Shown here: in pieces, positions 494 to 39,877 of the stretch
Layout: each line of letters opens with the position of its first letter
Numbering within the stretch: position 1 is the first letter of the stretch
NCBI GenBank assembly: GCA_023645945.1
Contig: JALAIB010000039.1
Location: 1 to 42,903, forward strand
Reading direction: 5' to 3'
DNA length: 42,903 nt
Source of the DNA: Diploschistes diacapsis
Taxonomy: Eukaryota
The notes under the pieces: generated by a model
The model's input: only the letters and a program-made list of their open reading frames with translations
Told to the model about the DNA's origin: nothing
Databases searched by the model: none
Made by a program: the position numbers and the translations under genes

Positions 494-1996
494 TTGAGGG
501 GCATAGCTGGCGAGGGAACTAGCCCAGTTTTCATTGAAGAAGCTCAAAAAATCACACCTGAACTATGGCTGATAATTCTTGCTTACTTCTGGCGGTCAAA
601 GATTTGCATGATCGGCGATGACATGCAGCTGAAAATCCCAAAGGTTGACACATGGAACAATCCAGCAGCGGTTTGCTTAGCAAGATCGCCCCTAGAACTG
701 CTGATAGCTCGCGGGCGCCCTCACGTCGTACTTGAATGTTCATACCGCGCAGCGAGCCCCCTGTGTCAATTCTTCACTGCAGCATGTTATCCCATTAGGT
801 CCATGCTTCCAGATTCTCGACGACCTTTGATGGAAAAAGTCCGTACGCTACACAAAGACTTTCCTGCGTTAGGAGACTGAGTCGGACATTCCCGTAGCAT
901 ATGTCAACACTGGGTCCACCGAAGAGGCACAGATTGGTCCTTACAAATCATCTTACAACTTTGGAGCCATCAACGCGGTCATTTATCTCATCAAGGCAGC
1001 CATCAAAATTGGTATCAAGGATACAGAAATTACTATTCTGTCCAATTACAGGGCACAGATCGACTTTTACCTAATCATTCTTCGACATGAGAAGCTCAAA
1101 GTGGAGGCCACCACGACTGACGGGTATCAAGGACGGGCTATCCATTATATTATCTTTGAGCTCGTTCGTACAAAGGCAGAAGGATATACTAACCACCCGG
1201 CAAATCATACTACTGCATACACTCAAGCGAAATCTAGACTAGCCATAATCATTAACGACAAAAAATGTACCCAGTACTGCAACAGGATGCCTCTCGAAAC
1301 CAAACCCTGCTGAAGGCTCGTAACTTCTGTCGGAAGCAGTCTCTGTACGTTGACTGGCCTCTTGGAAACAAGAAAATGAAGATTGACTATGCTAGTTAAT
1401 GCGGGAGGAATGCCCAAGATGTCTATGATCTCGAAGAAGGCATCCTCCGTAAAATAGAACGCAAGGCTGAGTTCGATCAAAAGATTAAGGAGTTGAACGA
1501 AGCAAATCCTGTTCAGGGCACACAATTCATGTCTGAGACCGATACAGAGGAGATGGCGTCCGTACCACCTAGTCCTATTCCTGAAGACATCGGAATTGAG
1601 CATCCCAATCCTCAAGCCAAGACAGACGAATGGAAACGTTCCAGTCCTAGTCCACCTCATCAATGGGGCAACCCTACTCTCAACCAGCCAGATCTCTCTA
1701 CACTAAACAAAGTCCCTGAGGCTGATCCTCAAATCGATGCAGACGAATGGGGATTTCTCGTGGCACAAGGTCAAGCAGGAAGTACTACAGGTTTCATCCA
1801 GACAGACTTCTCCAAGCCGGAGAAAACCCGCAGCACTGATGAAGCTAAGGCTCGCAAGTCCCCCTCCAAAATCAGCCACTCCCGACCATCTTTAGATGCT
1901 AGTGATAGCCCCTCGAAGAAACTGAAGTCTATATATCACACATCTCTCCCAGAGTTCATAAATCAGACATCACTCACTGATGAAAAACCTAGATAA
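494..1996 (+). pseudogene. Degraded SF1 UPF1/DNA2/NAM7-like helicase (C-terminal half) with low-complexity tail
   Basis: Motifs in order: VFIEEAQ (DEAxQ), IGDDMQL (GDxxQL), LECSYR, ITILSNYRAQ, TTDGYQGR...IIFELVRT, AYTQAKSRLAIIIND (degenerate ALTRAR..IVGD). Interrupted by a stop and frame change near 880, a frameshift near 1310 and an in-frame TAA near 1397. No Walker A seen. The 1493-1996 ORF continues the last frame. Confidence 0.8.
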
Positions 1997-11600: not shown

Positions 11601-12527
11601 TCATCTCCAGAAAGAAGAAACGCCCAGTTTCATCATCGACAAGGTACTCAACAGTGCCCGCCGAACCATAGTTGATGCTCTCAGCCAATCGGACGGCGGC
11701 TTCTCCCAATTTCTCCCGCAACTCGGGTCGTTTGGTAACGAACGGGCTCGGGCATTCCTCAACGACCTTTTGATGCCGACGCTGGATTGAGCATTCGCGC
11801 TCGCCGAGATGGATCGCTCTACCTTGCCCATTTCCGAACACTTGAACTTCGATATGGTGGGATGAAGGATAGAATTTCTCGATGTATAGTCCAGGATTAC
11901 TATACAATGCCTCGCCACGAGACCGTACTGTTTGGAACGACTCCCGCGTTTGTTTCTCATGTTGGCAGCTCAAGAGTCCCATACCACCGCCTCCTGCCGT
12001 CGCTTTCAGAATGACCTGTCCAGGTGAGCAAGGTTCTTAAAAAGCCAGGTAACGGCGCGCACTGGATAGCCTAGCTTCTCTGCCACTTTCGCAGCTTCAT
12101 CTTCGGAATCCACAAGCCCCCGAGTACCTGGGACAACTGGCACATCCGCTTTCGAAGCGAGCTCTCGAGCTGTATGCTTAATACCAAAATCCTCGATGCA
12201 CTTGGGACTCGGACCAACAAAGACTATCCCAGCTTCATTTACCTTTCTCGCGAAGTCGGCGTTTTCAGATAAGAACCCGTAGCCAGGAATGATGGCATCA
12301 ACTCCCCTAGACTTTGCGATATTCACAATCTGCTTGCCATCTGAGTAAGCCCTAGAGTCAGGTCCTGCAAGGAGCACCGACTCATTAGCGCAGCTAACAT
12401 GAGCAGAGGTAGCGTCTGCGGTAGTATAGATCACGATAGTATGGATCCCCAGTTTTTTGGCAGTTCTATTAATTCGAACAGCTATCTCGCCTCTGTTAGC
12501 GATAAGAAGGGATTTGAGTTTCTCCAT
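8661..12527 (-). CDS. lamA: Urea carboxylase-family biotin enzyme without amidase domain (LamA-like)
   Basis: LIANRGEIA, PGYGFLSEN, KATAGGGGMG, ERECSIQRRHQK, EMNTRLQVEH; allophanate-hydrolase-type carboxyltransferase domains; biotinyl motif EAMKLE. Introns 12062-12016, 9573-9524, 8946-8900. Confidence 0.9.
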
Positions 12528-12902
12528 CGTATGGTTTGGCAGCACTATTGGCGGGTCGCTACATATCAAAAATGAGTTAAAAGCGAGCCTGAGATAAAGA
12601 CATATGCGGTCAAAAAAGTTATATTATCAAATGATAACCCATGTAGGTGCTCCTTTGCAAGTTGGGGAAGAGGAGGGGGTGTGATGCACTGGAGCGCAGT
12701 GCCGCGGCCGTTCCTGTTGTGACGTATAGCGGGCCTTACCGCATAGGAGGTCTTCTATGTGAATGGCATGTTAAGAAGCCTTTCTCACGTTGTGCTTATC
12801 GTCTTGTAGTTTTGCCCATAAAGAATTTCGATTATTCAGTCGAGATTGAACTGGCAGGTCGACATAGTATTGCAAGCCGCACCGATCCAGATATTCGAGG
12901 AT

Positions 12903-13771
12903 ATGGCTTCCTCTCCAATCCAACACAAAGCTTTCCTGAATGTCGATCTAGGGGAGGCTGTAAGAATCTTCTTTCGTTAGCAATGTAAGAAAATAATAAA
13001 AATATAGTATGGTAATTATGTTTGCGGGCCGGATCTCGAGCTTCTGCCCCTGATCGATCACGCAAACGTGGCATGCGGCTTTCACGCTGGAGACCCTCTC
13101 ATAATGATGGAGACGGTCAGAAATTGCAAGAAGCATAACATCAAAGTGGGTGCTCACCCGGGCCTGCCAGACATCCAAGGTAGAAGACACAGCAGCACTA
13201 TGTTCAATCTCCATTGCTCATACGTTACTGAGGATTCGGACGTCGTGAAATCAAGATGTCTCCAGACGAGCTAACAGCGAACACGAGATATCAAGTAGGA
13301 GCTCTGAAGGCGTTCTTAGACGTCGAAGAAGTTCCCTTGCACCATGTGAAGCCTCATGGAGTACTCTATGGTATGATGTGCCGGGACTATGAGACCGCAC
13401 GAGCCGTGATGGAAGGCATTCCCAAGGGCGTCCCTGTATTCGGACTGGCGGGAACCGAGATGGAGAAGGCTGCAAATGATCTGAAACTCCCTTTCTGGGC
13501 CGAAATGTACGGGGATGTCAAATATGACCGGCATGGAATGCTGGTCATCGATAGGAAAAAGAAAGCGTGGGCAATCGAGGACGTGCGAAAACATGTCGGC
13601 CAGCAGCTCAACTCGCAGTCTGTCACAGCTACCGATGGAAGCGTTGTTCAATTGCCTATCAGGGATTACCCTATTTCGGTGTGCTGCCATTCGGATTCAC
13701 CTGGGTGTCTAGATATAGTCAAGACGACGAAAGAGGTCATTGATGAATTCAACAAAGGACACGGAAGATAA
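12903..13771 (+). CDS. lamB: LamB/YcsF (PxpA-like) lactam utilisation protein
   Basis: [52 protein letters not shown]. Introns 12960-13007 and 13180-13232. Divergent from the lamA-like gene. Confidence 0.92.
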
Positions 13772-14300: not shown

Positions 14301-17300
14301 ATGGCCGACGTACACCGGATCGGCTTCACGGAGCTTTCTGGCAGTCAAGGCGCTAGGGTTGATTTGCGGAGGGTCAAGTATTGGAGCCTGACTTACAGAG
14401 CTTGGTAGCACCCACACTAACGTAAGGCAGTATCATCTTAGTTCATGGTTTAAGAGGTCATCCGGTGGAGACATGGGAGAGCAGTCAAGAAGATGGCAAC
14501 AAACCCACGGCTGGCCCGTCAGGTTTGCGCCAGAGCGTCAGATCCCTCTTCAAATCCCACGCTTCCCCATCAAGAAGCGACAGCACACAGAACAATGCAA
14601 GTTCGGCGCAGCGGAAAGTTTTCTGGCTCCGAGATTTTCTTGTTGAGGACATTCCGCAGGCAAGAGTATGGACGTACGGGTACAACGCCGATGTGATTGG
14701 CGGTGTGTTTCAGGCAAACAACAAGAACAGCGTCTCGCAGCATGGTCGTGATCTCAAAGTTCGTCTCGAGCGCGACATTGAAAATGAGGTGATTCTAAAC
14801 GGGTTGGAGAGCTTCAGAGTACAGGCTCACGGGAATAGGACCCAATCATATTTGTGGCTCACAGCCTCGGGGGCATCATCGTCAAAGATGTATGAAAGCG
14901 GCTCTGTTCTCGAAGTATGGCGATGCAGGAATGCTGACGTTGGGTCACAGGCAATTACAAGATCTGAAAAGTGTCGGTCTCGAACGAAACTTATCGTCTT
15001 TCTTGGAACACCACATCGTGGCAGCGCAATGGCGGGATGGGGAGAAATTGCATCGAATCTTGCGCAATTGGCGTTCCAGGACTCGCATAAAAAGATCGTT
15101 CAGGCTCTGGACGTGGACAGCGAGGTGCTTAATAATATCCATGAGCAGTTTATAAGCACAGTGTATGACCACGGCATCCCCATACATTCCTTTCAGGAGG
15201 CTCGAGGAATGACTGGTATGAAGGGGCTGCATAAAAAGGTACGCAATTCCAAACTTGAGGGACGTTGCAACGTGACCAAGTACGTCGGTGATTGCAGGTA
15301 GTGGACGACTTCTCTTCGAAATTAGACTTGACCCAATCACTGGAGACCGTGGAGAGTATCGATGCGAATCATACTCAAATGTGTAGATGCGAAGACAAAA
15401 TGGACGCGCGCTATCGCGCCATTTCTGGAGTGTTGAAGCAGTCACTGAGGAGCGGCCTGCTTAATGTAGATACTCATGGAAGCCGGCTTATTACGACGCT
15501 AAGGTCTGATGTGCAAGTGCAGCAAGAAGTGGCAGGAGGTGGAGTAGGTGGTGGTGGTAGCGCAAGAGAAATTAGACGAAGCAGTTAGTGTATCTCTACT
15601 CTCAATGTTTCTGATTTGCGCAGGTCGCTAATCGCTTACAGCTCATGCCACAGGCTCTTGCTTTTATATTCCCTTTCTACGAAATCGACGATTCGTCGGT
15701 CGGATGAACTTACTGAAAGAGATTGGAGAAAAGCTGCTCACTAATGAACACTGCCAGAAGCTTGCAATTGTCGGCCTTGGTGGAGTGGGAAAGACACAGC
15801 TTGCGCTGGAGTTTGCATACGTGGTGAAGGAGCGCTGGCCTGGGTATTCCATTTTCTGGGTGCCGGCCGTAAGTAGTGAGACTTTTGAGCAGGCATACGG
15901 TGAGATAGCGACAAGATGCTCTGTTCCTGTGAATGAGAAAGAGGAGGACTTAAAAACAACTGTGCAGCGTTACTTGAGCGATAGCTCTGCAGGCAAATGG
16001 CTCCTGATCGTTGACAACTCAGACGAACGAGAGATCTTGTTTGGAACAACAGAGGAGCCAAAGGGTATAGCAGACTATCTACCGGAGAGCGAGAATGGGT
16101 TGACGTTGTTCACTACCCGTACCAGAGAGATGGCACAATCACTAGCAGGCAATGAGATCGTCGAGATCGACGAAATGAATCCCGAGGAAGCGAAAACCTT
16201 TCTTGAAAAGTCTTTGATTCAAACAGAGTTGCTTTCTGACACTGCCATCGTTTCAGAATTGCTGAGCGAGTTGACAAATCTGCCTTTAGCCATCGCACAA
16301 GCGGCGGCATACATCAATTCAATGCGGATTTCAATCCAAGTTTATCTGTCGCTTTTACGGGGTACTGAACACGATGCAATCAGCCTTCTAAGTCGAGAAT
16401 TCCATGACAACATGCGTTACAAAGGCTTGAGGAATGCTGTGGCCGCAACGTGGCTCGTGTCATTCAACCAGATTCAGCGATCAGACCCCATTGCTGCAGA
16501 TTTACTCTCCTTTATATCATGCATCGAAAACAAAGCGATTCCCCAATCGATGTTGCCTTCCTCGCAGCCGGCAGAGCGTATGATGCACGCCATCGGTACA
16601 CTTTCTGCCTATGCTTTCGTCATAAGACGCGACGCTAGCGACATTTATGACATCCATAGGCTTGTGCATCTAGCAACAAAAGTGTGGCTGGACAAGCATG
16701 GTCTCACAGAAAAGTGGAAAGAGAAAGCTGCTACACACTTACGGCAGATATTTCCTTCAGTTAAGTGGAGTAATCGAGCCATATGGAGTGAGTATTTACC
16801 TCATGCTCTCCGCTTTCTCAGAGACACTGAAGGGTGGGATAACAGCAATAGGTATATATTAAGTATGTTAGTTGGACAATGGTTTCACTTTAACGGGCGA
16901 TATGGTGAAGCAATGGTACATCTTTCAGAATCTTTCTCATGGATGAAATTGCATTTAGCAGAAGATCACCCTGATCGACTGATGTCGCAGCGCTCTTTTG
17001 CAAAGGCATATCTCAGTGAAGGGCGAGTTAAAGAGGCAATCGAGCTACTTGAGCAGGTTATTGCAATTGAAAAGGTGCTTGCAGAAGATAATCCTAATCA
17101 ACTATTGTCGCAGTGCGTTCTTGCGGAGGCATACTCTATTGACGGGCGAGCCAAAGAAGGAATCGAGCTACTTAAGCAGATTATTGCAATTAAAAAGGAG
17201 CTTGCAGAAGATCGTCCTGGTCAATTATTTTCGCAGCATGTGCTTCTTGCACACGCATATCTTCAAGACAGACAAGTTGAAAAGGCAGTTGAGCTGCTCG

Positions 17301-18097
17301 AGCATGTTGTTATAATCCGAAAAAAGATGTTTGCAGAAGATCATCCTAATCAACTATCGTCGCAGCATATGCTCGCAATGGCATATCTTGAAGACGGACG
17401 AGTTAAAAAGGCGGCTGAACTGCTCGAGCATGTTGTTACAATCCGAAAAAAGATGCTTGCAGAAGATCATCCTAATCAACTATGGTCGCAGCACATGCTC
17501 GCAATGGCATATCTTCAAGACGGACGAGTTGAAAAGGCAGTTAAGCTGCTCGAGCATGTTGTTACAATTCAAAAAAAGACATTTGCAGAAAATCATCCTG
17601 ATCGACTATGGTCGCAGCACGTGCTCGCAAAGGCATATCTTCAAGACGGACAAGTTGAAAAGGCAGTTGAGCTACTCGAGCATGTTGTTACAATTCAAAA
17701 AAAGACATTTGCAGAAAATCATCCTGATCAACTATCGTCACAGCACATGCTCGCAGAGGCATATCTTCAAGACGGACGAGTTGAAAAGGCAGTTAAGCTG
17801 CTCGAGCATGTTGTTACAATCCAGAAAAAGATGCTTGCAGAAAATCATCCTGATCAACTATGGTCGCAGCACATGCTCGCAATGGCATATCTTCAAGACG
17901 GACGAGTTGAAAAGGCAGTTGAGCTGCTCGAGCATGTTGTTACAATCCAGAAAAAGATGCTTGCAGAAGATCATCCCTCTCGAATCAGATCAGAACGTCT
18001 GCTTTCCAAATCTCATGAAGAGCAACGACGGAAGGAAACACTGGATCAACACAAGCAGACCAATGATAATCTCAATTCAAAGTCATGCCAAGTATGA
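14301..18097 (+). CDS. Fungal NLR: SesB-like alpha/beta hydrolase + NB-ARC + TPR
   Basis: IILVHGLRGHP, RVWTYGYNA, IIFVAHSLGG (nucleophile Ser), FLGTPHRGS, DANHTQM; P-loop GLGGVGKT; Walker B WLLIVDN; 42-aa TPRs. Introns 14378-14430, 14789-14838, 14890-14950, 15239-15297, 15584-15641 restore one frame (first donor least certain). Confidence 0.9.
16960..17980 (+). repeat. About eight 126-nt TPR-coding tandem repeats, the last five nearly identical
   Basis: Recurrent GCAGAARATCATCCT...TCGCAGCA...GCATATCTTCAAGACGGAC...GAGCATGTTGTTACAAT units. Confidence 0.92.
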
Positions 18098-21854: not shown

Positions 21855-22823
21855 TCACCGCCGAACCTCCCCCCCGTCGAGCTCGTACCTCGTCCCCCTC
21901 TGCTCCGCCTCCACCGGCGCCTCCACCGCCCAACTGTCGCCCCCAAGCTCATTTATCGACTCCTGATGCAGTTCCGCCCTCATGTGTCCGCCCATGCCCT
22001 CAGCCTCCGCCTCCGCCGTCCCAGCCCTTACCGGATACGCGCCCTTTTTCTCGCTATAGACACCCGTCATAGGCCCATCGCTCTTCCTGCTCGCTCTCCT
22101 CCGCTGCCAGAGCAAAAAGCCCAGGGCGCCCAGCACCAACGCGGCCCCGACACCCACGCCGACGCCGACGCCGATCGTCGCCGGCTCCGAGAGGCCCCCG
22201 CTCGAGTCGTTGTTCGTATTACCCGCGTCGGGCACGGCGGTGGCCGTAGTCACGGCGTCGGTGCTGACGGGAAAACTGCTGATGCTGACGGGCACCTGGG
22301 TGGAGTTGGAGCTGGCGGGCTCGCTCGAGGTGGCGGAGGTGCTGCCGCCGCCCTGCTGCTGCAGGCGGTAGACGACAATGCAGTTGAAGCCGCCCTGCTT
22401 GTACAGCGTGCTGTCCGTGTCTCTCAGTACCAGATAGTTGATGCTGCCGTCGGTCGCGGTGCCGGCCTGGGCGTTGGTCGAGGCGTTCTTGTTGGAGATG
22501 TTCCAGTTTAGGGTGCCGCCGGCGGGGTCCGAGCACGAGCCGCCGTCCTCCCAGACGTAGTTGTTGCCTGGGGAGACGACGGTGCTGGAGTTGGGCGTGG
22601 CGCTGCCGAAATCGGTGGGGTAGGCGGAAAACCAGTCGACTTCGGACCGGGCGCCGGGGCTGGCCCAGCAGTTTACGAGGAAGGGGTAGCCTAGCTCGGG
22701 ATTGGAGGCGCGTCTCATGTGGGCGGATGGTGTGAAGAGGGAGAGAGGGTTGAGGGAGAAGGAAAGAGCAGTGGTGGCGACGAGGGAGAGGGTGAGGAGG
22801 AGGGCGCTCGTTCTCGAGGCCAT
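21855..22823 (-). CDS. Single-pass cell-surface protein (Mid2-like architecture)
   Basis: Signal peptide, Cys-containing ectodomain, Ser/Thr-rich stalk, TM segment IGVGVGVGVGAALVLGALGFLLW followed by RRR, cytoplasmic EL/EAP/YEL motifs. Intronless, GC-rich. Confidence 0.85.
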   Translation of the reverse strand: MASRTSALLLTLSLVATTALSFSLNPLSLFTPSAHMRRASNPELGYPFLVNCWASPGARSEVDWFSAYPTDFGSATPNSSTVVSPGNNYVWEDGGSCSDPAGGTLNWNISNKNASTNAQAGTATDGSINYLVLRDTDSTLYKQGGFNCIVVYRLQQQGGGSTSATSSEPASSNSTQVPVSISSFPVSTDAVTTATAVPDAGNTNNDSSGGLSEPATIGVGVGVGVGAALVLGALGFLLWQRRRASRKSDGPMTGVYSEKKGAYPVRAGTAEAEAEGMGGHMRAELHQESINELGGDSWAVEAPVEAEQRGTRYELDGGEVRR

Positions 22824-23430
22824 GGTGGATGGTTTGCGTTTGGAATATTTCTGATGGAGAAAGGCGACTCCAGGCGTCTGCTTGACACAAGACGGCTGTA
22901 GGAAAACAGGAGCAGACCTTGATTCAAAGAAGCGACGATGAAGGAACGAACTGGCTAAAGACAGAGTTGGCCAAAACTACGAGTAGGAAGACTCGAAAAC
23001 AGCAAGAAGGTTGGGAAAGTGGTGGCAGTAGGAAGGGGAACTCGGTCATTCGCTTTTCCCATGCTCTCTACCTTTGGAAGCGGAGGAGTGGTTCGCCAGT
23101 CCCAAATATGCATACCAAAGTATCTTACGGGGTTATTGGTTGTAGCAGTGAAGAATTCTAGCAGCATAACCAATCAATCAATCTTCAGGGACCTAAAACA
23201 CTGGGCATCCGGGCTGTGCGACATGCCGGCCCTTCGCATGATTGGTCTTGGTCTAGGTCTGGTCAAAGAATCAAGATATGGAGTAAGTAGTTGGTGATCA
23301 ATGGCTTCAAACTCCAACCTGGCTTATAAGTGTTATATAACCCCCTTTGAAACAGACTGCAATTAAAGACTATTACATACGCCCATTTTAATTTTAAGCT
23401 TATACAGCGCTACTAGATCGCTTACGCATA

Positions 23431-23694: not shown

Positions 23695-25513
23695 ATGCTC
23701 TGTGAAACGATATTCGACTAACCAGCCTGAATTCCGCGGCAAACACCCCGAGACGATTACGCATCTTCTCCTCGCTGCTACGTAAGATGGCCGCGGACTG
23801 TGCGCTTCGCTGACCAGCGGACTAGCTTCTAAGATCGCTGTGCATGCTGGTATGGACGAGAAGGTGGCAGCGGAATGGAATGGGCAGCGCCTCTGGACGT
23901 ACGAATGGGATCGCTACACTCGGGGCTCGTTTATACCGTCGAATTATCAAATTCTGCGGTATCAATCTCGCAATCCGAAGCTCGAGTACCGGGAATTCGC
24001 ACTGATACCCGCTGCGTTTGGGGAGGATGATCAAGCGTCTATTGACCAGGCTCTTAAGCGCGGTCGGCCAAGTCGTTTTATCGATAGCATTCAGAGCTGG
24101 AAGTCGATACGCCTTTCTTCTTCATGGTTGCAGACATGCTTGGAAGAGCATGCGGACTGTCCAAAAGCACAAAGTCCTTTAATTGCTACCTTTTGAAACC
24201 AGCTATGCCCAAAAGTATTCATGCCTGCCAGAAGATGTCCCTCCGCACTCCAGTACCAGCTGGCTCCCCAAACGCCTCATAGACAGATCCGACAATGAGA
24301 AGCTGCGTCTAATAGAAACCTCGGAGAGTGCCCCTATAGGCCAATACGCAACCCTAAGCTATTGCTGGGGCAAGAATCCTGACTTTCTAATGCTGACCGC
24401 TGATAACTTGCCCAAGCTGAAGAACCAGATCGCGGAGTTCTTAGTGCCGACGTTTAGAGATGCAATCAACGTAAGTAAGTGTTTGAACATTCGGTACTTG
24501 TGGATCGGCGCACTCTGCATCCTGCAGCGCGGCGAAGGCAGCGCCCAAGACTGGATAGACCATACTACCGCCATGCGGGACGTGTGCACACACTATCTCA
24601 TAAACATCTCTGCCGACAGAGCCGCTGGTGCCGGTGATGGATTCCTAATGCCCTGCAGTCTCGATCTCGTCTCCCCAGTCATTGTTGACCATCCTAAGCT
24701 ATCTGTTCACAGGATCGTGGATTTGGGCCTGGCCCACACCTGCATCAGCCGATCCCCCTTGGCGCAACGGGCATGGGTGCTGCAGGAACGCTGCTTTCCG
24801 GCGCGCGTCCCACACTTCACGGCGCAGCAGGCCTTTTGGGAATGCGTCAGTACAACGCTGGCTTCTGAGGCATTCCTCCAGCGAGTTCCGCTGGCATCCG
24901 ACTGCGGCGCATATTTCAGCGCCGTCCGCAAGACGATGAGCAGTGGAGTCCTGTCATCGCCCCCCTCAAATGGCTTGGGCTGTGATGGGCAGTCGCCACG
25001 GATGGTATCAGATACTCGAGGAATATACATCCGCAAAACTTACCTTTCCGGATAAGGACAAGTTTTATGCCCTGCCTGGCGTCGTGAGCCGAATGCAGCT
25101 TCAGTAGCCAGACGATCACACTGCTGGACTATTCCGGTCTGATTTCCCCCGAGGGTTGCTGTGGGGTATTGCGCCTGAAAGTAACGAGGGATGCCTCCAC
25201 GGTGGTGGCACAAGACGGCAAATACCTTACACCTACATGGAGCTGGGCCTCTCCGGACAGTCCAATAACTTACGCTCTAGCTAAGTCATGTCTTAGATAC
25301 CCACAGGACAAGATACAATTAGCAGATGTCCTCAAGGTGAGCTCGGCTCCCGTAGATCCCAGTCATCCACTGGGACCAGTGAGTGAAGGTGAGCTGCTGG
25401 TCCGCGGCCATGTGTGTAGTGTGTGCTGGGAGTTCGACAATTACGCTCTAGCGGGTGGCCTGCTACAACTTGTGCACCCAGAGGCTAGTCGATATCACCC
25501 CCTTTTGAATTAA
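23695..25513 (+). pseudogene. HET-domain (PF06985-type) heterokaryon incompatibility gene, disrupted
   Basis: WLQTCLEEHADC, WLPKRLID, YATLSYCWG, YLWIGALCILQ (conserved D replaced by G), PLAQRAWVLQER, PTWSWAS, spread over several frames with early stops and frameshifts. Confidence 0.85.
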
Positions 25514-32366: not shown

Positions 32367-33261
32367 TTACTTCTTCTTCTTGGTCACACCTCCATCCACA
32401 GTGATATCTTGTCCCGTAACAAAGCCCGCGTTAACAAGGTACTCCACCGCATCTGCAATGTCCTTTGGTCGCCCAGCGCGATTCGTTGGGTGATCTTCGA
32501 CATCCTTATCTTCGTTAAGCTCCGCCCACTGCGTGCCCTTCTCATCGCCATCCTTGCTCTCGTGCGCAACCTTGATGCGGCCCGGCGCCACCAGGTTGAC
32601 TCTAATGCCCCACTGCGACAAACTGATGGCCATGCTGTGCATGAGACCCAGCTGCCCGGCCTTGGTCGATGCGTAACCCTCTTGATTAGGATCTGACTGG
32701 AGCGCACGGAAGGAGCCGATGTGGATGATGCAGGGGCCGGCGTCCGACTCGTTGTGGTGGGCTGCGTCCTTGCTGTCTTCTTGCTTCATGTACGGCAGGC
32801 AGGCTTGTGAAACGGCAAACGGCGCTGTAAGGTTCGTTTCGATGTAGCTGGGCGCTCATATGTCAGTATAGTCGCAAACTAGCGTCGTAGATAGAGGTTC
32901 CTCTCATAACTTACGCTTGCCACTGAGAGATAGTATCGAATTCTGCCATGGTTTTCCCGTCGCCCCAGTTCGGTGTCGCAATACCACCGTTGTTGACAAG
33001 GACATCAATTCGGCCACCAAGCCAGTCTGCAGCTTGCTTGACCCTATCCCGGATCTCATCCACTGAGCGGAGGTTGCAGATGGTCGACTGGACTTGCTTC
33101 TTGTCGTAGTATTGCTTCAGGTGCACGGTAGTAGTGTGCTTGAGCTCTTCCTCGTCAATATCAAAGATGGAGACTTTGTAGCCGCGTTCGAGGAAGCGCC
33201 GAGCGATGCAGCGGCCAATACCCCTCGCACCGCCGCTGATAACTGCTGTCTTGGAAGACAT
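32367..33261 (-). CDS. Short-chain dehydrogenase/reductase
   Basis: SGGARGIG, VLVNNGG, YASTK, VNLVAPG, FVTGQDITVDGG. Intron 32914-32848. Confidence 0.92.
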
Positions 33262-34018
33262 TGTCGTCACAGCTTTGATTGTTGTTCCAATAGCTGAGAA
33301 CACACGTTGGCTTGTTGGTACAAAATGGTTGAGAGACGAAATTATTGGAGATCCGGCTTTCGAATAACTCGCCGTAATGTTGTTTCGTCATCGTGATGAA
33401 TATGGGGTTGTTCTTTCTTTTACACTGGATCAGTCTTCTTGCTGTGTACTACCTTCCCCTCTCAAAAGAATATTTTCCAGACTAACACGAAGCTTACAAC
33501 GATCGTGATATGGGCGGGCATGGAATAAGTAACCTCACCTCATCGAACGTGCTGAGTGTGGTTCCCTTTTTCAACTTAACTTGCAATGAAAACATATTGA
33601 TTATTCATTATTTCTGTACTAGAAGGTGGTAGGTTGGTGGCTTTTCCCTTCAATTGTCCTAGTCATCAATTGCTTCCACGAGAGATTCTCTAATCACCCA
33701 TGCGCTCCATGGGTATATATACCTTTATATCGCCATATATCTTGTAATTCGCTGGGTCTCTTATAAGGAAGAACAGCATGCTCTGGAAAATGACGTGCTG
33801 ATTGCACAAAACGCCGTTGTGGCCTTCAACTGAAATTCATTAACGAGCATGGGCGAGCTCAATATATCTCCTCCTGCACCCGCAACTTAGGGATGTGCTA
33901 GACACAGTACAACTCGTCCGCACCATCTTCCAGCAACGGCACTACAGATTAAAGATGCCACAGCAGGTTTCATGCCACCTGAATGGTCATCATCGTTGCA
34001 TTTCCTACCCGTGCGCAT

Positions 34019-34461
34019 TTAAGCCTGTGAGGTATCAGCAAGTAAACGCTTCGAACGAAGTGCCTTGGGCAGTACCTGAGCCTCTCTTTCCTCAACACCA
34101 TCAACATCTTCGGTGAAATTGGGTTGCCGGAATACCTACAATAGTTTTGTGAGCACACATACGACTTCAAAGTTTGCTTCGTACTTGAGCCTCTCTCGTC
34201 TCAACGCCATCAACGTTGTCAGTGAACGTGGGCTCACGGAATGCCTACAACCATTTAGTGAGTAACTAGGAGACTGACGTTTGAGCCATACTTGAGCTTC
34301 TCTTCGTTCGAGAATCTCCGGATCTTTCATCTCATGTCAGCCCAGTCCATTCCACTCCTGAATTATTTTTTCGACCTACAAGGATCTGGCCGAGTGATAG
34401 GCACAGCAGTGGCAAAGGCGCTCAAGGCAGCCAAGACTACAGAAACACATACGATATGCAT
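34019..34461 (-). CDS. 79-aa secreted repeat peptide precursor (putative RiPP precursor, UstA-like role)
   Basis: Exons 34461-34380, 34323-34292, 34244-34185, 34135-34076, 34024-34019, with four GT-AG introns of 47-56 nt carrying branch-like sites. Product MHIVCVSVVLAALSAFATAVPITRPDPYPEILERREAQAFREPTFTDNVDGVETREAQVFRQPNFTEDVDGVEEREAQA*. TATATAA at 34554-34548. Confidence 0.88.
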
Positions 34462-35191
34462 AATCGACGATCGGCCTTGGACGAAGAGATGTTCAAAGTA
34501 AGAGAGCAGAAAGCATCGATACTTCAGCTTTGGACGGGTCGAGGGCCTTATATAGGTCCACCCGGAAGCTTCGCAACAGAAATAAGAAGCGTTGCTAAGG
34601 TTCTATACACCGATCGTCCAGCATTACACTCATCGCACCCTTGCAGGCTTCGGGCAATGGAACAATGACAGGTAGACAGTGAGACATCTCCAGCCGGCGT
34701 GTCATACGGTATTTGAGATGGAACGGTACATCTTCAGTAGGCCCAAGACCAATTTTCCTAACCGTGTCCTGCAGTCTATAGCAATCGAGGACAGGACATT
34801 TACCCGATGAGTAGATCTGAGTTGGGCTTAGCGCTACTTGACTGGATGCCTTCGAAGGAAACCCGACGTTACATAGAGCTGCTGCAGTTTTGGCAGTTTC
34901 TTTGCTATCACCGGCCAGCCTCTTACGTGTAGGCCCACTGCTATAAGTCTTGGTTACTTGAACTAGTTTCTGCCAAGTCTGATGCAAATCTGGCTATAGG
35001 ATCCGTGCCTTGGTCCAATATCAACCCCTTTAAAGCAAGAATAGTACTTCCTCTTTTGAAAAGCAGAGGTCACAAGGGAAACGCGGCCCTGTTCGCAGCC
35101 TTATCTCTGCCGTTGGAAGCTTGGGGGGATCCAACGCGTACATTAAACCCGCGGTCAGTCTCTTGCCCTTGCGCGTTTTGAACACCTCACA

Positions 35192-36230
35192 ATGTCCGTT
35201 ATGTCCCCTCCAACTAGGATCGAACGCAAGTCACTCGACTGGGAGCTCCGCTCGGAGACTTCGAAAGACTTTCTTCTTGGCGCTGGCCAGAAATCACAAC
35301 CAGCAACCTTTCCGAAGAATCCAAAACGGCTCTTCATTGCCCTTACTGTCGGGAATGCAGTCTTCTTCATTGCAGGTTGTCTTGTATAGTTGCTTCTAAT
35401 CTCATCGAAACAAGATCACAAAAAGAAGTGGAAGGCTGTATCTCTATACTGTAAGCAGCAAAATATATACTGAGTGTCTACTCCTCTAACGGTGAGCAGC
35501 TCCCATCTTCGACAAAGGTATAAACTTCGACCTAAACGAATCCACCATGAATCGTACACTCTGGGCTATGGACGAGTCGACTTCAATATACATTCAGGAT
35601 CCGAGTCCCGAGGTCGACGCAGCTTGGGAGTATATCTCGGCCTATGCCAAGCCTATCATCACCATTGATCGAGCAGAGGTGACGGCCTTGGGGAGGGATC
35701 CAGATGTCATTGTCAAGGCACCTGATGAGTGGAATATGGGGGACGCTGCCTACCCAGCTCAAATTAACGTATTTCACGACATACATTGTCTCAACATGCT
35801 GCGCAAGGAGATGGTAACCGGTCCACTGAAATCGCCCTTGGTATCGCAGTCACTAACATGCAGAATATAGTGGTGGGATTACTATTACCGTTCAAGGTTT
35901 GGCGACCGTGCAAACCAGCCGTATCTTCACGTTAGGCACAAGCGGCACTGCCTCCGCAAGGTCCTCCAAGCACTAATGTGTAGCGCTGATGTGGACATCG
36001 TGACGCATAATTGGAGACGCGGGACCCTTCATCCAATAGCTGATTTTGACAACCCACGAAAATGTAGGAACTTTGAGAGCTTAGTAGATTGGAACAACAT
36101 AAATGGAGTTCCCGTCGACGAAGAAGCATGGCGCACCATCAAGCGGCCAGATAAGGCCGTAGTGCTGCCGAAGGCGACACCAAATTTGTACACGCCTGAA
36201 GACAGTGAGGAGTGGATAAACTCAATTTAG
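35192..36230 (+). pseudogene. UstYa-like DUF3328 oxidase with in-frame TAG
   Basis: N-terminal TM helix, SLYSP, PSPEVDAAWE, FHDIHCLNMLRK, HKRHCLRKVLQALMCSAD, CRNFESLVDW. Introns 35451-35499 and 35814-35870. Single TAG at 35387-35389 within the TM helix. Confidence 0.88.
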
Positions 36231-37858
36231 CTCAGCTATTGTCGGTTACAATCGCCACGTCGTCCAGGGTGTGATCTAGGAGGCAGGAACTTGTCCGCTT
36301 GCAGCCTTGGATATCGCAGCTCATCCTTGTTTGACTTGACTTCAGCGCGAGCGGCATCTTCGCCTCGACTGCTGACCCTAGAGTGAGTACGTGGGACTTT
36401 GAGATGCAAAACTGAGCGAGCTCGTAGTGCATACTCGGGTTGAGAAGTCTTCTCGCTTATATTGTATAATCGGCAGCGGTTATTGTGACGGTTAATTTTG
36501 GCAGATTGCAGACGCTAAGCTACGTTCCCTCGAAAAATACAGAGCTACTTAGATTTGTATGTAGATCCCATATCAATTGAAGTAGTACCCATAGTCTTCC
36601 CAGCCAGAGCAAACATTATGCATTTTATATTGCACTTTCTCTCACCCAAAATCCTCCCCCAGTTGCTGCTCATATCTTTGAAATCCAAGTATTTATTTGC
36701 CTTGCTTGCTGCTCCAGCCACTAACTACGCCAACCCACTTGTGTACACCCGATTTTGCACACTGCCAAGATAATGGTCAGAATCCTTTATTGCAGTTCCT
36801 AGCGATAGCGGCAGGTGTTCACACCTCAGCCATGACTATCTATCTAGAGTTAGTTATCTTAGAGCGATGGGACTAGCTGACAAGTTGTGGAGTGTGGACT
36901 AAATAAGCGAACTGAAAACTGCAACGTGGGCAGTCACATCATTTTAGACTATAACTAGTAGGAAGTAGAACACGTTGTGGATCCCGTCGTTACGTCAATC
37001 CGTAACTTCACATCAACTTGGGCCTGCTCGGCGATGCCTCAATCACATACTCGCAAGAAATAGGATCCAGGTTCGGAGGTGATGCTTTCCTGAAAAGCGG
37101 TAAGGGGGGATGACTACGTCCCCAAGCTACTTCCTAGGAATACAACTTGTGCTCGGCTAAATTACTCTTTCTCTTGCCATATGCTTCAAGGGATGGATCC
37201 TCGAGGCATCGAAGTGCGAATATACCCCTCAAGACGAAGACGGCTGGGCCGCAATCGGAGACGGAAACGCATAACATGGCAATTAATGGGGTCTTCACTG
37301 CATTCACTTGCGTGGTAGAATCTAACATATACGATTCTGGGGCGAAATAGCGTCAAATGCTAAGCGAAAATACTGCAGCGATAGCTCGCTGAGCTCCAGT
37401 CTCCTCGGCTGAAGCTCGCTATTCCCAGCTTTGCTTCCACCGCTTCTGCCAGGACTCTGTCTTGATCTAAATCTGACAGTCTGTGGCCATAGGAAGTAGA
37501 AACTAGGCACTGGAACTATAGCGCTAGACTGTGTGCAAGGTGGATTTCCAATGAACATATGAGACAAGCGGTCGGTCACGGCACGTCGATACGGATGGGT
37601 CATCCCGACCAGGATAACTGGGGGATTTATTGTCTTCTCTTATGCGGAGCCTCGTGGTGATTGTTCTGGTGATTAAAAGTATCTGGAGGTTCAGTTTGTG
37701 GAGTTCCACCGTGTCCTTCTTTCATCCTTCCATTTACCTGTCTCTACTCTTTGAACGTCGTTGCTTGATGGCCACTGGCTCACAAAGTCGACGTTAGACA
37801 ACACAATTTGACCTTATTCAGCACCGCTGTCTCTTGAGGGTCGGAAAGGCTATCAAGC

Positions 37859-38812
37859 ATGGCAATTTATTCTGAGCTCCCGCAGGAGGAGAGGTTTGTC
37901 CCTTTAGAACCGGATGTGGTAGGGAGCTCGGAGCGTCCATGGAAACGATTTGCTATTCTCTGCAGCAAGGTTACCATATGTCTTCTCGCTGTTTGGGGCA
38001 TATTTGACATCGCAAACACTTCGATAGTTGCAATATCAAAGACCAGAACGGCGGAGACAATGGCAGAGATCGCATCACTAACGATCCCTTCCTCGGCTAC
38101 CCAGATTGAGTCTATTGCGGCGTCGCGACCGGTCCTAGAAAACGGCTACGTGAAGCGTCCTTCGAAGAGCTCATGCAGATGCGGTAGTACAATCAGCGAG
38201 GCTCTTGCGAATGATTGCAAGTACGACTCTCATGCCACAGCTTGGTTGCCGCCTCACTGCCGGGATGATGAACTACTCGAAGAATGGGAACGGTCTGGTC
38301 GGGGTCCTAACGGGGCATGGGAGTACTTTGCATATCCAAGTCGAAATCAATCTCTCACCGTGGAAGAGGTATCAATGCTCGCGGACACAGGCGGATCCTT
38401 CTGGATGACCCATGAGTGGCACATTATGGTAAGCTCGCCCTACCTTTTCTTGCTTAGCTTGTGAATGTGGAAATGAACGAAAGGAAAGAGAAAAGCACCG
38501 CTACCATCTAAGGCATTACTGTATTTGCAGTTTTTTCTTGAATGGTAATGATTTACTCCCCTTGTTAATCCAGACAAACCTGCCTACCCCAAACCACTGA
38601 CGTTGTGATAGCACTGCGCATTCTCTTGGCGCAAGCTCTTACGGGCTCCGGTGACCGGAATCACAATAGATAGGCGTACCGACGGCCTTCACCATATCAA
38701 ACACTGCGAGAAGAATTTTCTGCGAAGAGTTGATATTCATCAGATCGTAACTGTCTCGGGCGTTTCTCTGGATGCAGATGAAGGAGAGGACATGGAAATT
38801 GGACCTGCATAG
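37859..38812 (+). CDS. Second HxxHC oxidase (DUF3328-related subfamily)
   Basis: TM helix; CGSTISEALANDCKYD..AWLPPHCRDDEL. Intron 38429-38611 joins WHIM|HCAFSWRK; second motif HIKHC; stop 38810-38812; 256 aa. Confidence 0.8.
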
Positions 38813-39877
38813 TGATTGTTGCATAGAATGCGAAAGCTCCCACAGCTAGTATGATTGGATTTGCATATGTGGGTTTTCTACGGAGATAAACCATTAAACC
38901 CGAAGACTTATTATAGTCCTGCGCTTCGATACAGCTCCATTGCAGCAAGCTTCGCGTGGCAGATGAACGCTTTGAGACATCTTTCAAGTCGAAGTTGCAA
39001 ATGGCTTCGGTGCCATTCGGAATAGAACAAGTCCGACCAGGGTCGCCCCTTTTGGAAGAATTTCGTCCTGGATTCTAAGTCGGATGTAACAGTGGCGATG
39101 TGATTAAAGAGGAAGGGCCTGGGAGGGAGGGGGAAGGGTGGTATAAATACTGGCCGGACTCGGAGTTTAGGGTTTGTACTTTTCTTGCACAACTTTTATG
39201 CTCCGCCTTAATTTAGGACATGTATATAAATGGCTTAACGTTTCGCTCGAGTAATGTAGTTCACATAACTTTACGGTTATGGTTTTATCTTCTACACCCA
39301 CCTGCATTCATTTTATTAAATCTTTTTTAGGCGTTGTTTTAAATCGAGCATAATAATCTTCTTTCATTTTTTCAGGGACGTGGAAACGTTTAATAGTATC
39401 TTGTTTGAGCTGAAAGGGGTGGCTATTTGCGGGCATAATGAATGCTTAGTATATGGATAAATTAGGGGACTAATTTATGCGATTAAAAAACTTATCCTCG
39501 GTATTTATAGCTTCAATATTAGTGGAATTATGTGAGTTTGGAAGTTGGATTTTGTATTCTTCTTTGTCTCGCTCCTCCTGCCACCATATATATGTTTTAC
39601 CATCACTCCTTGTTTACCTGTGCAGGCGGTCAGCCGGAGCAACAGAGGCTGCGATTGATTAGAAATAGCCGTTCCGTAGCCTGGAAGAAAGAAGCGACTG
39701 TGACCTCGATGACCTGATGTCGGCGATCGGCATCCTGTGTAATCAGCCTGGCTGTATCCGAGTTGACACTTGCGTCTTGCTTTAAAATGCCCGCTTCATC
39801 CACAATCAACAATCGAACCTTCAAAGGTGTACTGCTTTTCATCAAACATCCTGTTTGCAATAACTTTGCTCTTCGCC

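What the first reader, a model, noticed from the sequence alone, without database searches (positions are those of the whole stretch)
34019..34461. Hidden five-exon RiPP-like precursor with Tyr-free Phe-x-x-Pro-x-Phe cores
Seen: manual splicing gives a 79-aa protein with a signal peptide, an RR-EA site, and two 20-aa repeats (AFREPTFTDNVDGVETREAQ, VFRQPNFTEDVDGVEEREAQ). No exon is long enough to appear correctly in the ORF track. Established: signal peptide + Kex2/Ste13-type (R-EA) repeats beside DUF3328 genes is the layout of dikaritin precursors (UstA, PhomA, AprA, VicA); most characterised cores cyclise through Tyr. Inference: processing would free Q(A/V)FR(E/Q)P(T/N)F plus an acidic follower, possibly pyroglutamate-capped. 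With no Tyr in the repeats, any crosslink must use another residue (Phe oxidation, as with the victorin core GLKLAF). I recognise no characterised product with this core.
Basis: partly seen in the sequence, partly recalled or inferred. Interest (0 to 1): 0.95.

Follow-up and report, generated by a model that had tools for sequence, protein, structure and literature searches.

The report
Split-exon peptide precursor beside UstYa oxidase
A tiny, multi-intron gene in a lichen-forming fungus probably encodes a secreted repeat peptide that the neighbouring UstYa-type oxidase modifies, which would supply the precursor that lichen 'dikaritin-like' gene clusters were reported to lack, but nothing yet shows that it is expressed or modified.

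Summary
The sequence features are real. On the minus strand, 34461-34019, five GT-AG-bounded exons give 240 nt (79 aa): a signal-like exon, a pro-segment ending RR, and two 20-aa repeats (14 of 20 identical), each on its own exon. A public ab initio model (P0001, "hypothetical protein", Diploschistes diacapsis MAG) uses the same introns 2 and 3. It lacks the signal exon and reads "intron 4" as coding, so the gene is only half hidden.

A Pfam-confirmed UstYa/DUF3328 gene (35192-36230) is transcribed divergently 730 nt away. Four near-identical metagenome contigs, effectively one lineage, carry its relative (62-69% identity). At the same divergent position they hold a small gene with a similar signal exon, a phase-1 intron one codon away, KR sites, and Tyr where this gene has Phe.

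I read the gene as a dikaritin-type RiPP precursor variant (confidence 0.55).

Weak points:
- No RNA evidence is available.
- Only one site is dibasic, and there are only two repeats.
- Intron 4 is unsupported.
- The second "oxidase" is not shown to be DUF3328.
- A conserved Tyr-x-x-Ile sits in the pro-segment.

Tyr-free repeats beside DUF3328 genes are common in published surveys. Interest is moderate.

The parts
34548..34554 (-). TATATAA box, 93 nt upstream of the exon 1 ATG
   Evidence: Read directly. Its function is inferred.
34380..34461 (-). Exon 1. It holds the first in-frame ATG and 27 codons plus 1 base, encoding MHIVCVSVVLAALSAFATAVPITRPDP (signal-like).
   Evidence: Hydropathy of 10-residue windows is 2.0-3.0 over residues 1-10, with Ala at -3 and -1 of a possible cut after residue 18. 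Similarity to the homolog's exon 1 was reached by 1 of 2000 shuffles.
34324..34379 (-). Intron 1 (56 nt, phase 1, GTAGGT...CTGAC...AAAG)
   Evidence: The homolog has a phase-1 intron (52 nt) one codon away, just before the conserved Tyr. The public model instead starts at the ATG at 34330, inside this intron.
34292..34323 (-). Exon 2. It completes the Tyr codon and then encodes PEILERREAQ. It holds the only dibasic (RR) site.
34245..34291 (-). Intron 2 (47 nt)
   Evidence: The public model P0001 uses the same intron. Codon score is negative in all three frames.
34185..34244 (-). Exon 3, repeat 1: AFREPTFTDNVDGVETREAQ
34136..34184 (-). Intron 3 (49 nt)
   Evidence: The public model P0001 uses the same intron.
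34076..34135 (-). Exon 4, repeat 2: VFRQPNFTEDVDGVEEREAQ
34025..34075 (-). Either intron 4 (51 nt, GTACTG...CTGAT...CAG) or a coding tail (VLPKALRSKRLLADTSQ, which contains a KR site). Unresolved.
   Evidence: In frame, with no stop, and both readings end at the same TAA. The public model reads it as coding. In-frame codon score is +3.6 and GC is 0.51.
34019..34024 (-). Final Ala codon and the TAA stop
35192..36230 (+). UstYa/DUF3328 gene (called UstYa1 here). Exons are 35192-35375, 35500-35813 and 35871-36230. The protein is 285 aa, with a TM helix at 47-65 and HxxHC motifs at 154 and 189. It is divergent from the precursor, with 730 nt between the two ATGs.
   Evidence: Pfam PF11807 matches at E 3.1e-19 and 6.9e-18 on the two ORF pieces. 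The model is 61.3% identical (171 of 279) to P0002, which itself matches UstYa at 4.6e-51.
37859..38812 (+). Second membrane protein with two HxxHC motifs (HIMHC at 188, HIKHC at 218). Exons are 37859-38428 and 38612-38812; the protein is 256 aa. It may be a distant UstYa-like protein, but this is not shown.
   Evidence: No Pfam family at E up to 10. hhalign against the UstYa alignment gives probability 0.4%, E 0.16, although the HxxHC motifs line up. Relatives P0006-P0008 are 53-56% identical.
32370..33387 (-). Short-chain dehydrogenase/reductase gene immediately downstream of the precursor on the same strand. It is a possible accessory gene.
   Evidence: Pfam adh_short and adh_short_C2 on two ORF pieces. 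Its membership of the cluster is inference only. No counterpart was found in the 1.2 kb available downstream in L003.

Best explanation
The locus is a real small gene of a lichen-forming ascomycete. The source's own name for its public gene model is a Diploschistes diacapsis MAG.

It encodes a secreted pre-pro-peptide of 79 aa, or 95 aa if the last 51 nt are coding. From the N-terminus it has:
- a signal peptide (exon 1)
- a 16-residue pro-segment holding a Tyr-x-x-Ile motif and ending Arg-Arg
- two 20-residue units, [A/V]-F-R-x-P-x-F-T-x-x-V-D-G-V-E-x-R-E-A-Q, each on its own exon

The proposed mechanism is inferred by analogy with dikaritins.
1. The propeptide enters the ER and Golgi.
2. There the divergently transcribed type-II membrane oxidase UstYa1, with two HxxHC motifs, oxidatively modifies the segment around the aromatic residue near the start of each unit. 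That residue is Tyr in the pro-segment and Phe in the two repeats.
3. A kexin cuts after Arg. The RR site is canonical; the TR and ER sites are weak. A Ste13-type dipeptidyl peptidase then trims Glu-Ala, and in unit 1 possibly Gln-Ala too. This releases short acidic peptides.

Shown here: the gene structure in the DNA, the UstYa identity of the neighbour, and conservation of the gene pair in one other lineage. Inferred: splicing, secretion, cleavage sites, and any modification.
For: 1. Coding signal. Differences between the repeat exons are biased to the third codon position (3/3/9, P=0.03). The exons are better conserved than the introns (45 of 60 ungapped against about 54% gapped). Codon log-odds are +17.0 in frame, against -8.9 and -52.6.
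2. An independent public gene model uses introns 2 and 3.
3. The neighbour is a bona fide UstYa: Pfam E 3.1e-19 and 6.9e-18, two HxxHC motifs, an N-terminal TM helix, and 61.3% identity to a full-length UstYa protein.
4. Conserved pairing. A UstYa1-based scan of metagenome contigs confirmed 4 of 100 pattern matches. These 4 contigs are near-identical to one another, so they count as one lineage. They are 69% identical to UstYa1 in exon 2 and 62-64% in exon 3. All 4 have, upstream and divergent, a small gene with these parts:
- exon 1, MHFMRVLGTMALLATISAALPIAD
- a 52-nt phase-1 intron
- an exon encoding YEGIEKTKR, then SPVDAYGRYTED(L/V)APPV(M/V)SSKR, then HEALAYGRKTDDVDEG...
5. Similarity of the two precursors. 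The full local score is 46, against 22.4 +/- 4.1 for shuffles (0 of 2000 reach it). For the signal exon alone, 1 of 2000 shuffles reaches the observed score. The phase-1 intron, the Tyr that follows it, Ile at +3 and the dibasic site all line up. The homolog's KR sites fall where this gene has RR, TR and ER.
6. In the literature, DUF3328 genes are enriched next to KEP genes, at a mean distance of 3.09 genes. Pheromone-type KEPs lack them, with three exceptions (PMC7329392 abstract).
7. A TATATAA box lies 93 nt upstream, and the exon 1 ATG is the first in-frame ATG.
Against: - There is no expression or splicing evidence.
- Only 1 of 3 Arg sites is dibasic.
- There are only two full repeats. The KEP definition needs at least 3, and dikaritin precursors average 5 (PMC10512285 passage).
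- The repeats hold no Tyr. Tyr is stated to be mandatory for DUF3328 cyclisation in ustiloxin, phomopsin and asperipin-2a (PMC7329392 passage).
- A profile of the repeats found only the gene's own public model among 1,835,955,588 representative proteins. The public model as query found only itself. It also found no relative in metagenome contigs: 597 pattern matches, none confirmed.
- Beyond the signal exon, similarity to the positional homolog is weak. The score is 30 against 20.7 +/- 4.2, and 72 of 2000 shuffles reach it.
- No tyrosinase, methyltransferase, peptidase or transporter domain was seen. I scanned 58 of the 75 ORFs of at least 110 aa, plus 18 smaller ORFs near the locus.
- Loss of KR sites and of Tyr, relative to the homolog, would also fit a decaying gene.
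Confidence: 0.55

Rival explanations
1. It is a secreted kexin/Ste13-processed repeat protein that releases unmodified linear acidic peptides, as a pheromone, signal or effector would. The adjacent UstYa serves another substrate or pathway.
For: The Arg-Glu-Ala motif is the alpha-factor style of processing site (PMC9769878 passages). The repeats lack Tyr. UstYa proteins also work in non-RiPP contexts, such as hydroxylation and chlorination in cyclochlorotine clusters (PMC12048977 passage). SDR, FAD-monooxygenase, aldo-keto reductase and P450 genes lie nearby.
Against: The precursor-UstYa pair is conserved, divergent and adjacent in a second lineage. Pheromone-type KEPs almost never sit beside DUF3328 genes (PMC7329392 abstract). 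The repeats have no Trp or Cys and no other resemblance I could recognise to ascomycete alpha-pheromones; that comparison is from recall and was not tested.
Confidence: 0.15
2. The pathway's real core is the single Tyr- and Ile-containing pro-segment, with the Tyr at the exon 1/2 junction followed by P-E-I-L-E-R-R. UstYa1 would crosslink it through Tyr as in ustiloxin or phomopsin. The Phe repeats would be followers, spacers or inactive copies.
For: Outside the signal peptide, this segment is the part best conserved with the positional homolog. Tyr, Ile at +3, an acidic residue and then a dibasic site all align. Ustiloxin and phomopsin cores are Y-x-I-x and are cyclised between Tyr and Ile (PMC7329392 passages). 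In the homolog every segment carries [A/I]-Y, so the aromatic position is the conserved feature.
Against: The spacing is Y-x-x-I, not Y-x-I. The two Phe repeats show codon-level constraint of their own. Only one other lineage is available for comparison. No tyrosinase was found, although one is needed for ustiloxin and phomopsin cyclisation.
Confidence: 0.12
3. It is a silent or decaying gene. It would be a degenerate copy of a Tyr/KR-type precursor that has lost its crosslinking residues and two of three dibasic sites and makes no product. Alternatively, the exon 1 join is a coincidence and the public 71-aa, signal-less model is closer to the truth.
For: No RNA data are available. Relative to the homolog, Tyr has become Phe at both aromatic positions and KR has become TR or ER. 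The gene has no relatives among predicted proteins. Ab initio annotation of this contig is demonstrably imperfect: P0004 loses the second HxxHC motif.
Against: The open frame, four GT-AG pairs with branch-site-like CTRAY motifs, the third-position bias between repeats and the positive coding score all argue for maintained function. The exon 1 ATG precedes the public model's ATG on any transcript started near the TATA box, so scanning ribosomes would meet it first (inference). The homolog has the same signal exon and phase-1 intron.
Confidence: 0.13

Closest known systems
Dikaritin precursors of the ustiloxin, phomopsin and asperipin-2a type (UstA, PhomA, AprA) with their UstYa/DUF3328 oxidases
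   Same: It has a signal-like N-terminus, repeated units bounded by basic sites, and an adjacent UstYa gene with two HxxHC motifs. Like the asperipin-2a cluster, it is compact and has a reductase-type neighbour. The asperipin cluster is described as four genes including a reductase in passages of PMC12048977 and PMC10512285.
   Different: There are two repeats rather than about 5-16. Only one site is dibasic. The repeats have no Tyr. Each repeat sits on its own exon, with roughly 50-nt introns between. No tyrosinase or methyltransferase was seen.
Victorin precursor (VicA; a core ending in Phe)
   Same: It is the only characterised dikaritin said to cyclise through a Phe side chain (review PMC9233826, passage). 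It is therefore the precedent for a Tyr-free core.
   Different: I made no sequence comparison. There is no evidence here of chlorination or of a copper amine oxidase.
Epichloecyclin precursor GigA with GigB (DUF3328), GigC (SET) and KexB
   Same: It is a small secreted multi-repeat precursor in which a core is followed by a 'follower' peptide, and a DUF3328 protein is needed for cyclisation (PMC10540207, abstract and sections 1 and 3.1).
   Different: GigA has 27-aa units, LxKR sites and an almost invariant Tyr. Its cluster has a dedicated kexin and a SET methyltransferase. None of these was found in this window.
Kex2-processed repeat proteins (KEPs), including the alpha-factor type with Ste13 X-Ala spacers
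   Same: It shares the signal peptide, the Arg then Glu-Ala junctions, a predicted N-terminal Gln that could form pyroglutamate, and tandem units (PMC9769878 passages).
   Different: It fails the operational definition of at least 3 repeats between KR/KK/RK/RR. It sits beside a DUF3328 gene, which pheromone-type KEPs almost never do.
Unnamed positional homolog on metagenome contigs L001-L004
   Same: It has the same divergent position upstream of a UstYa relative that is 62-69% identical. It starts with the same 'MH' and has a similar signal exon, a phase-1 intron just before a conserved Tyr, Y-x-x-I followed by a dibasic site, and about 20-aa units with a T-[DE]-[DN]-V motif.
   Different: It has canonical KR sites and Tyr at both aromatic positions (A-Y-G-R-Y...). 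Its two clear units share one exon. A second canonical UstYa paralog lies downstream, rather than the non-Pfam HxxHC protein found here.

Membership tests
Dikaritin / ustiloxin-type RiPP precursor | N-terminal ER signal peptide | tested here: inconclusive
   The hydrophobic core scores 2.0-3.0 (Kyte-Doolittle, 10-residue windows, residues 1-10), with Ala at -3 and -1 of a possible cut after residue 18. The exon is similar to the homolog's signal exon (1 of 2000 shuffles). No SignalP run was possible, and the exon 1 join is unverified by RNA.
Dikaritin / ustiloxin-type RiPP precursor | UstYa/DUF3328 gene close to the precursor gene | tested here: met
   PF11807 matches at E 3.1e-19 and 6.9e-18. 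The gene starts 730 nt from the precursor ATG on the other strand. The pairing is conserved on 4 of 4 related contigs.
Dikaritin / ustiloxin-type RiPP precursor | Tyr in the repeated core (the crosslinking residue in ustiloxin, phomopsin and asperipin-2a) | tested here: not met
   There are 0 Tyr in the two 20-aa repeats. One Tyr lies in the pro-segment at the exon 1/2 junction. The positional homolog has Tyr at the matching positions.
Dikaritin / ustiloxin-type RiPP precursor | Product cyclised by the UstYa homolog | not testable with these tools
   This needs expression and mass spectrometry.
Kex2-processed repeat protein (operational definition of Umemura 2020) | At least 3 tandem repeats of at least 8 aa between KR, KK, RK or RR sites, after a SignalP-positive signal | tested here: not met
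   There are two full repeats. The sites are RR, TR and ER. The definition was read in PMC7329392, section 13.
Ustiloxin/phomopsin subtype | Tyrosinase in the cluster | tested here: not met
   No PF00264 match in 58 of the 75 ORFs of at least 110 aa, nor in 18 smaller ORFs near the locus. Split or short exons could have been missed.
Epichloecyclin (GigA) cluster | Dedicated kexin (KexB), SET methyltransferase (GigC) and 27-aa LxKR units | tested here: not met
   No peptidase S8 or SET domain in the scans. The units are 20 aa with R-EAQ junctions.
UstYa family (PF11807), gene 35192-36230 | Pfam match above the cut-off, two HxxHC motifs and an N-terminal membrane anchor | tested here: met
   The two ORF pieces score 70.1 and 65.7 bits against a cut-off of 25. 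HDIHC is at 154, HKRHC at 189, and the TM helix at 47-65.
UstYa family (PF11807), gene 37859-38812 | Pfam match, or profile similarity to UstYa | tested here: inconclusive
   No Pfam family at E up to 10 for it or for three relatives. hhalign gives probability 0.4% and E 0.16, yet the two HxxHC motifs align. Both AlphaFold models were too poor to compare, with mean pLDDT of 46.8 and 35.3.

The most novel reading that the evidence does not exclude
A lichen mycobiont makes a new dikaritin-type peptide in which a UstYa oxidase crosslinks or oxidises non-phenolic Phe cores (F-R-x-P-x-F). These cores would have evolved from a Tyr-bearing ancestor, of which a relative with A-Y-G-R-Y cores survives. 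The cores are released at monobasic Arg-Glu-Ala junctions. Putting each core on its own mini-exon would also explain why surveys of lichen genomes found UstYa genes but no repeated-core precursors.
Probability: 0.15. Interest if true: 0.8.

Novelty: new variant of a known kind. Interest (0 to 1): 0.5.

Why it matters
Only five dikaritins were listed as characterised in a 2022 review (PMC10512285 passage). A 2025 survey of 111 lichen-fungus genomes found widespread UstYa genes but no repeated-core precursor in the two conserved clans it examined (Parmeliaceae). [quoted passage not shown] That survey included this species' assembly (supplement).

This locus offers a concrete, testable candidate. 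It also suggests a reason for the gap. Pipelines that run SignalP and repeat finders on annotated proteins would miss it, because the public model lacks the signal exon and the protein has too few dibasic-bounded repeats.

The Tyr-bearing relative and the Phe-bearing gene form a natural pair for asking what a UstYa oxidase does when the phenol is absent.

If the peptide is unmodified, the locus is an ordinary small secreted repeat protein.

Tried and rejected
- RNA evidence. No RNA holder was listed for 33800-36300.
- Whole genome. None is held.
- Tandem Repeats Finder found no array. The repeat was later seen by the repeat finder.
- Precursor relatives:
  - The profile search over 1.84 billion proteins returned only the gene's own public model.
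  - The word-based search returned only the model itself among 2 candidates of 39-125 aa. Longer and shorter lengths were not searched.
  - The metagenome scan with P0001 gave 597 pattern matches, none confirmed.
- In-window tblastn with the exon peptides found no further copy.
- Other window genes against L001-L004. Of 20 ORF queries, 2 hit, both UstYa1 exons. The UstYa1 exon 1 query in that call was one base out of frame, so its miss means nothing.
- Second HxxHC protein:
  - Pfam gave no family.
  - hhalign was non-significant.
  - The PDB sequence search gave only chance-level colicin-immunity hits.
  - No solved UstYa relative exists for P0002.
  - Both AlphaFold models had low confidence, with pLDDT of 46.8 and 35.3, so no fold search was run.
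- DNA-level comparison of the intergenic and precursor regions with L003 gave only chance matches.
- Earlier findings of this scan held nothing on this genome or on UstYa.
- Papers:
  - Bevan 1998 (PMC27903) and Kessler 2020 (PMC7533671) are not held.
  - My memory that Kex2 tolerates Thr or Glu at P2 therefore stays unverified.
  - The only matrix I could read gives P2 = K or R only (PMC2515848, Table 1).
  - Searches for the core motifs found 2 unrelated papers.
  - A search on Diploschistes with RiPP terms found no description of this locus.
- Complex prediction was not run. An enzyme with a peptide substrate, using a stand-in ortholog, was judged not worth the job.
- My own slips. One search used a wrong frame. 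One search used UstYa1 coordinates one base off, corrected.
Full report
**What is in the sequence.**

The candidate gene lies on the minus strand. Splicing by coordinates gives five exons: 34461-34380, 34323-34292, 34244-34185, 34135-34076 and 34024-34019. They total 240 nt, or 79 aa plus TAA.

The four introns are 56, 47, 49 and 51 nt. All are GT...AG, with CTRAY-like branch motifs 10-14 nt before the acceptor (read by eye).

- Exon 1 encodes MHIVCVSVVLAALSAFATAVPITRPDP.
- A Tyr codon is split by intron 1 (phase 1).
- Exon 2 adds PEILERREAQ.
- Exons 3 and 4 encode the two quoted 20-aa repeats, which share 14 of 20 residues.

The repeat finder reports the unit as 82 nt x2 at 77% identity with spacing 109. 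It also reports a 25-nt exon-end/donor element x3. These are the only direct-repeat families in 33400-39700. No further copy exists in the window.

**Is it coding?**

Several measures say yes.

- The repeat exons are 45 of 60 nt identical without gaps. The introns are about 54% identical and need gaps.
- The 15 exon differences fall 3/3/9 by codon position (binomial P=0.03). There are 4 synonymous and 6 non-synonymous codon changes.
- The model frame keeps 13 of 19 residues, against 10 and 9 in the other frames.
- I built a codon-usage log-odds model from nine Pfam-supported ORFs of this window. It scores the spliced CDS at +17.0 in frame, against -8.9 and -52.6 out of frame. Introns 1-3 are negative in every frame.
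- Intron 4 is different. It is in frame and stop-free, has a GC of 0.51, and scores +3.6. It may therefore be a coding tail (VLPKALRSKRLLADTSQ) that would add a canonical KR site.

**Public annotation.**

A profile of the repeats, searched against 1,835,955,588 representative proteins, found exactly one hit. The hit is P0001, 71 aa. Its source names it 'MAG: hypothetical protein LQ340_000599 [Diploschistes diacapsis]', on a contig of 42903 bases, which is this window.

P0001 is reproduced exactly by 34330-34292 + 34244-34185 + 34135-34019.

The annotation of this contig is ab initio in quality. The neighbouring model P0004 skips the second HxxHC motif, which the ortholog P0002 retains. P0001 is therefore an independent prediction, not experimental support.

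**Neighbours.**

I gave Pfam 58 of the 75 stop-to-stop ORFs of at least 110 aa. The 17 I left out were shorter ORFs overlapping those scanned.

Two adjacent plus-strand pieces match UstYa (PF11807) at E 3.1e-19 and 6.9e-18. My model of this gene has these features:

- exons 35192-35375, 35500-35813 and 35871-36230
- 285 aa with no internal stop
- a TM helix at 47-65
- HDIHC at 154 and HKRHC at 189
- 61.3% identity (171 of 279) to P0002, a full-length UstYa protein (Pfam 4.6e-51)

The two ATGs are 730 nt apart and divergent.

A second gene (37859-38428 + 38612-38812, 256 aa) has a TM helix and two HxxHC motifs. It has no Pfam match. hhalign against a small UstYa alignment gives only probability 0.4%. 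Structure prediction failed to give usable models. 'Both oxidases' is therefore unproven.

Other neighbours are:

- an SDR immediately downstream of the precursor
- a FAD monooxygenase
- a peroxiredoxin
- a Zn2Cys6 regulator
- an aldo-keto reductase
- a P450 fragment at the contig end

I saw no tyrosinase, methyltransferase, S8 peptidase or transporter domain.

**The comparative test.**

No fungal genome collection with context was available, so I scanned metagenome contigs.

With P0001 as query, nothing was confirmed (597 pattern matches).

With a UstYa1 exon 3 alignment, 4 of 100 pattern matches were confirmed. These are L001-L004. They are near-identical to one another, so they count as one lineage.

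- They are 69% identical to UstYa1 in exon 2 and 62-64% in exon 3.
- In all four, upstream and divergent from the UstYa gene, lies a small gene with:
  - an exon encoding MHFMRVLGTMALLATISAALPIAD
  - a 52-nt GT-AG phase-1 intron
  - an exon encoding (A)YEGIEKTKR, then SPVDAYGRYTED(L/V)APPV(M/V)SSKR, then HEALAYGRKTDDVDEGAISNRG
- Against the window's spliced protein, the local score is 46, where shuffles give 22.4 +/- 4.1 (0 of 2000 reach it).
- For the signal exon alone, 1 of 2000 shuffles reaches the observed score. For the part after the signal, 72 of 2000 do.

Several features line up between the two genes:

- the 'MH' start
- A-x-P-I at the end of the signal
- the phase-1 intron, one codon apart
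- the Tyr that follows the intron
- Ile at +3
- the dibasic site
- the homolog's later KR sites, which fall where this gene has TR and ER

This supports the exon 1 join and the processing register.

The comparison shows as well that the homolog has Tyr (A-Y-G-R-Y-T-E-D) where this gene has Phe (V-F-R-Q-P-N-F-T-E-D). L003 and L004 carry a second canonical UstYa paralog downstream, where the window has the non-Pfam HxxHC gene.

**Interpretation.**

The best reading is a dikaritin-type precursor variant acted on by UstYa1 (confidence 0.55). Secretion, cleavage after Arg, Ste13-type trimming of Glu-Ala (and perhaps Gln-Ala in unit 1) and any oxidation are inferences by analogy. The analogies are drawn from PMC7329392, PMC9233826 and PMC9769878, of which I read passages, abstracts and named sections.

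The gene fails two membership features.

- It does not meet the operational KEP definition.
- Its repeats hold no Tyr.

I therefore do not file it as a standard member.

Tyr-free repeats are not exotic in themselves. In Umemura 2020, 65.6% of repeats in DUF3328-linked KEPs contain Tyr, and three of the seven abundant linked types lack it. A review states that victorin cyclises through Phe.

Three rivals remain:

- linear unmodified peptides (0.15)
- the conserved Tyr-x-x-Ile pro-segment as the true core (0.12)
- a silent or decaying gene (0.13)

**Context and novelty.**

The 2025 lichen RiPP survey covered 111 genomes and includes this species' assembly in its supplement table. It reports UstYa genes with HxxHC motifs across Lecanoromycetes. 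It found no repeated-core precursor in the two conserved clans it examined. Its method ran SignalP, a Kex2-site screen and RADAR on annotated genes.

That pipeline would miss this gene. The public model has no signal exon, and the protein has one dibasic site and two repeats.

Literature searches found no description of this locus or of its core motifs.

I rate it a new variant of a known kind. Interest is moderate (0.5). It is a concrete, testable candidate with one comparative support, but it has no expression or chemistry behind it.

Noticed in passing
window 35192-36230 (+): The public gene model for the UstYa gene (P0004, 215 aa) joins exon 2 to the middle of exon 3 and so loses the second HxxHC motif. 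The 285-aa model given here keeps both motifs and matches the ortholog P0002 over its whole length.
   Followed up: yes
window 37859-38812 (+); relatives P0006-P0008: This is a family of roughly 240-260-aa membrane-anchored proteins. They share a conserved C-x-C-G-S-T-I-x-E-A...A-W-L-P-P-H-C-R-D-D block and two HxxHC motifs about 30 residues apart. No Pfam family matches. It may be an unrecognised, distant UstYa-like family.
   Followed up: partly
L003 about 1138-1200 (-), and the same place in L001, L002 and L004: Downstream of the homolog's stop codon, in another frame, lies a third ...V-I-Y-G-R-H-G-D-K-E stretch followed by GTAAGA. It resembles the A-Y-G-R units. This suggests a further exon, or a decayed repeat, separated by an intron.
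   Followed up: partly
L003 4080-4780 (+); L004 2946-3474 (+): A second UstYa paralog lies downstream of the UstYa1 relative and is 38-47% identical to UstYa1. Its second motif reads H-L-S-H-Y rather than HxxHC. In L004 the UstYa1-like exon 3 match splits into two pieces at residue 99, as a frameshift would.
   Followed up: no
window 34493-34516 (-): A 7-codon upstream ORF (ATG...TGA) lies between the TATATAA box and the exon 1 ATG. Whether it is on the transcript depends on the unknown start site.
   Followed up: no
window 8789-13771: A divergent gene pair. One is a large biotin carboxylase plus carboxyltransferase protein (Biotin_carb_N, CPSase_L_D2, CT_A_B, CT_C_D). The other is a LamB/YcsF protein. 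The pair looks like a lactam or 5-oxoproline utilisation pair.
   Followed up: no
window 15632-18094 (+) and 24183-25052 (+): An NB-ARC plus TPR protein (NLR-like) and a HET-domain protein. Both are typical fungal allorecognition-type genes.
   Followed up: no
window 22001-23000: This is the most GC-rich kilobase of the contig (0.629). It has long ORFs on both strands (for example 21858-22976 on the minus strand, 373 aa) and no Pfam match.
   Followed up: no
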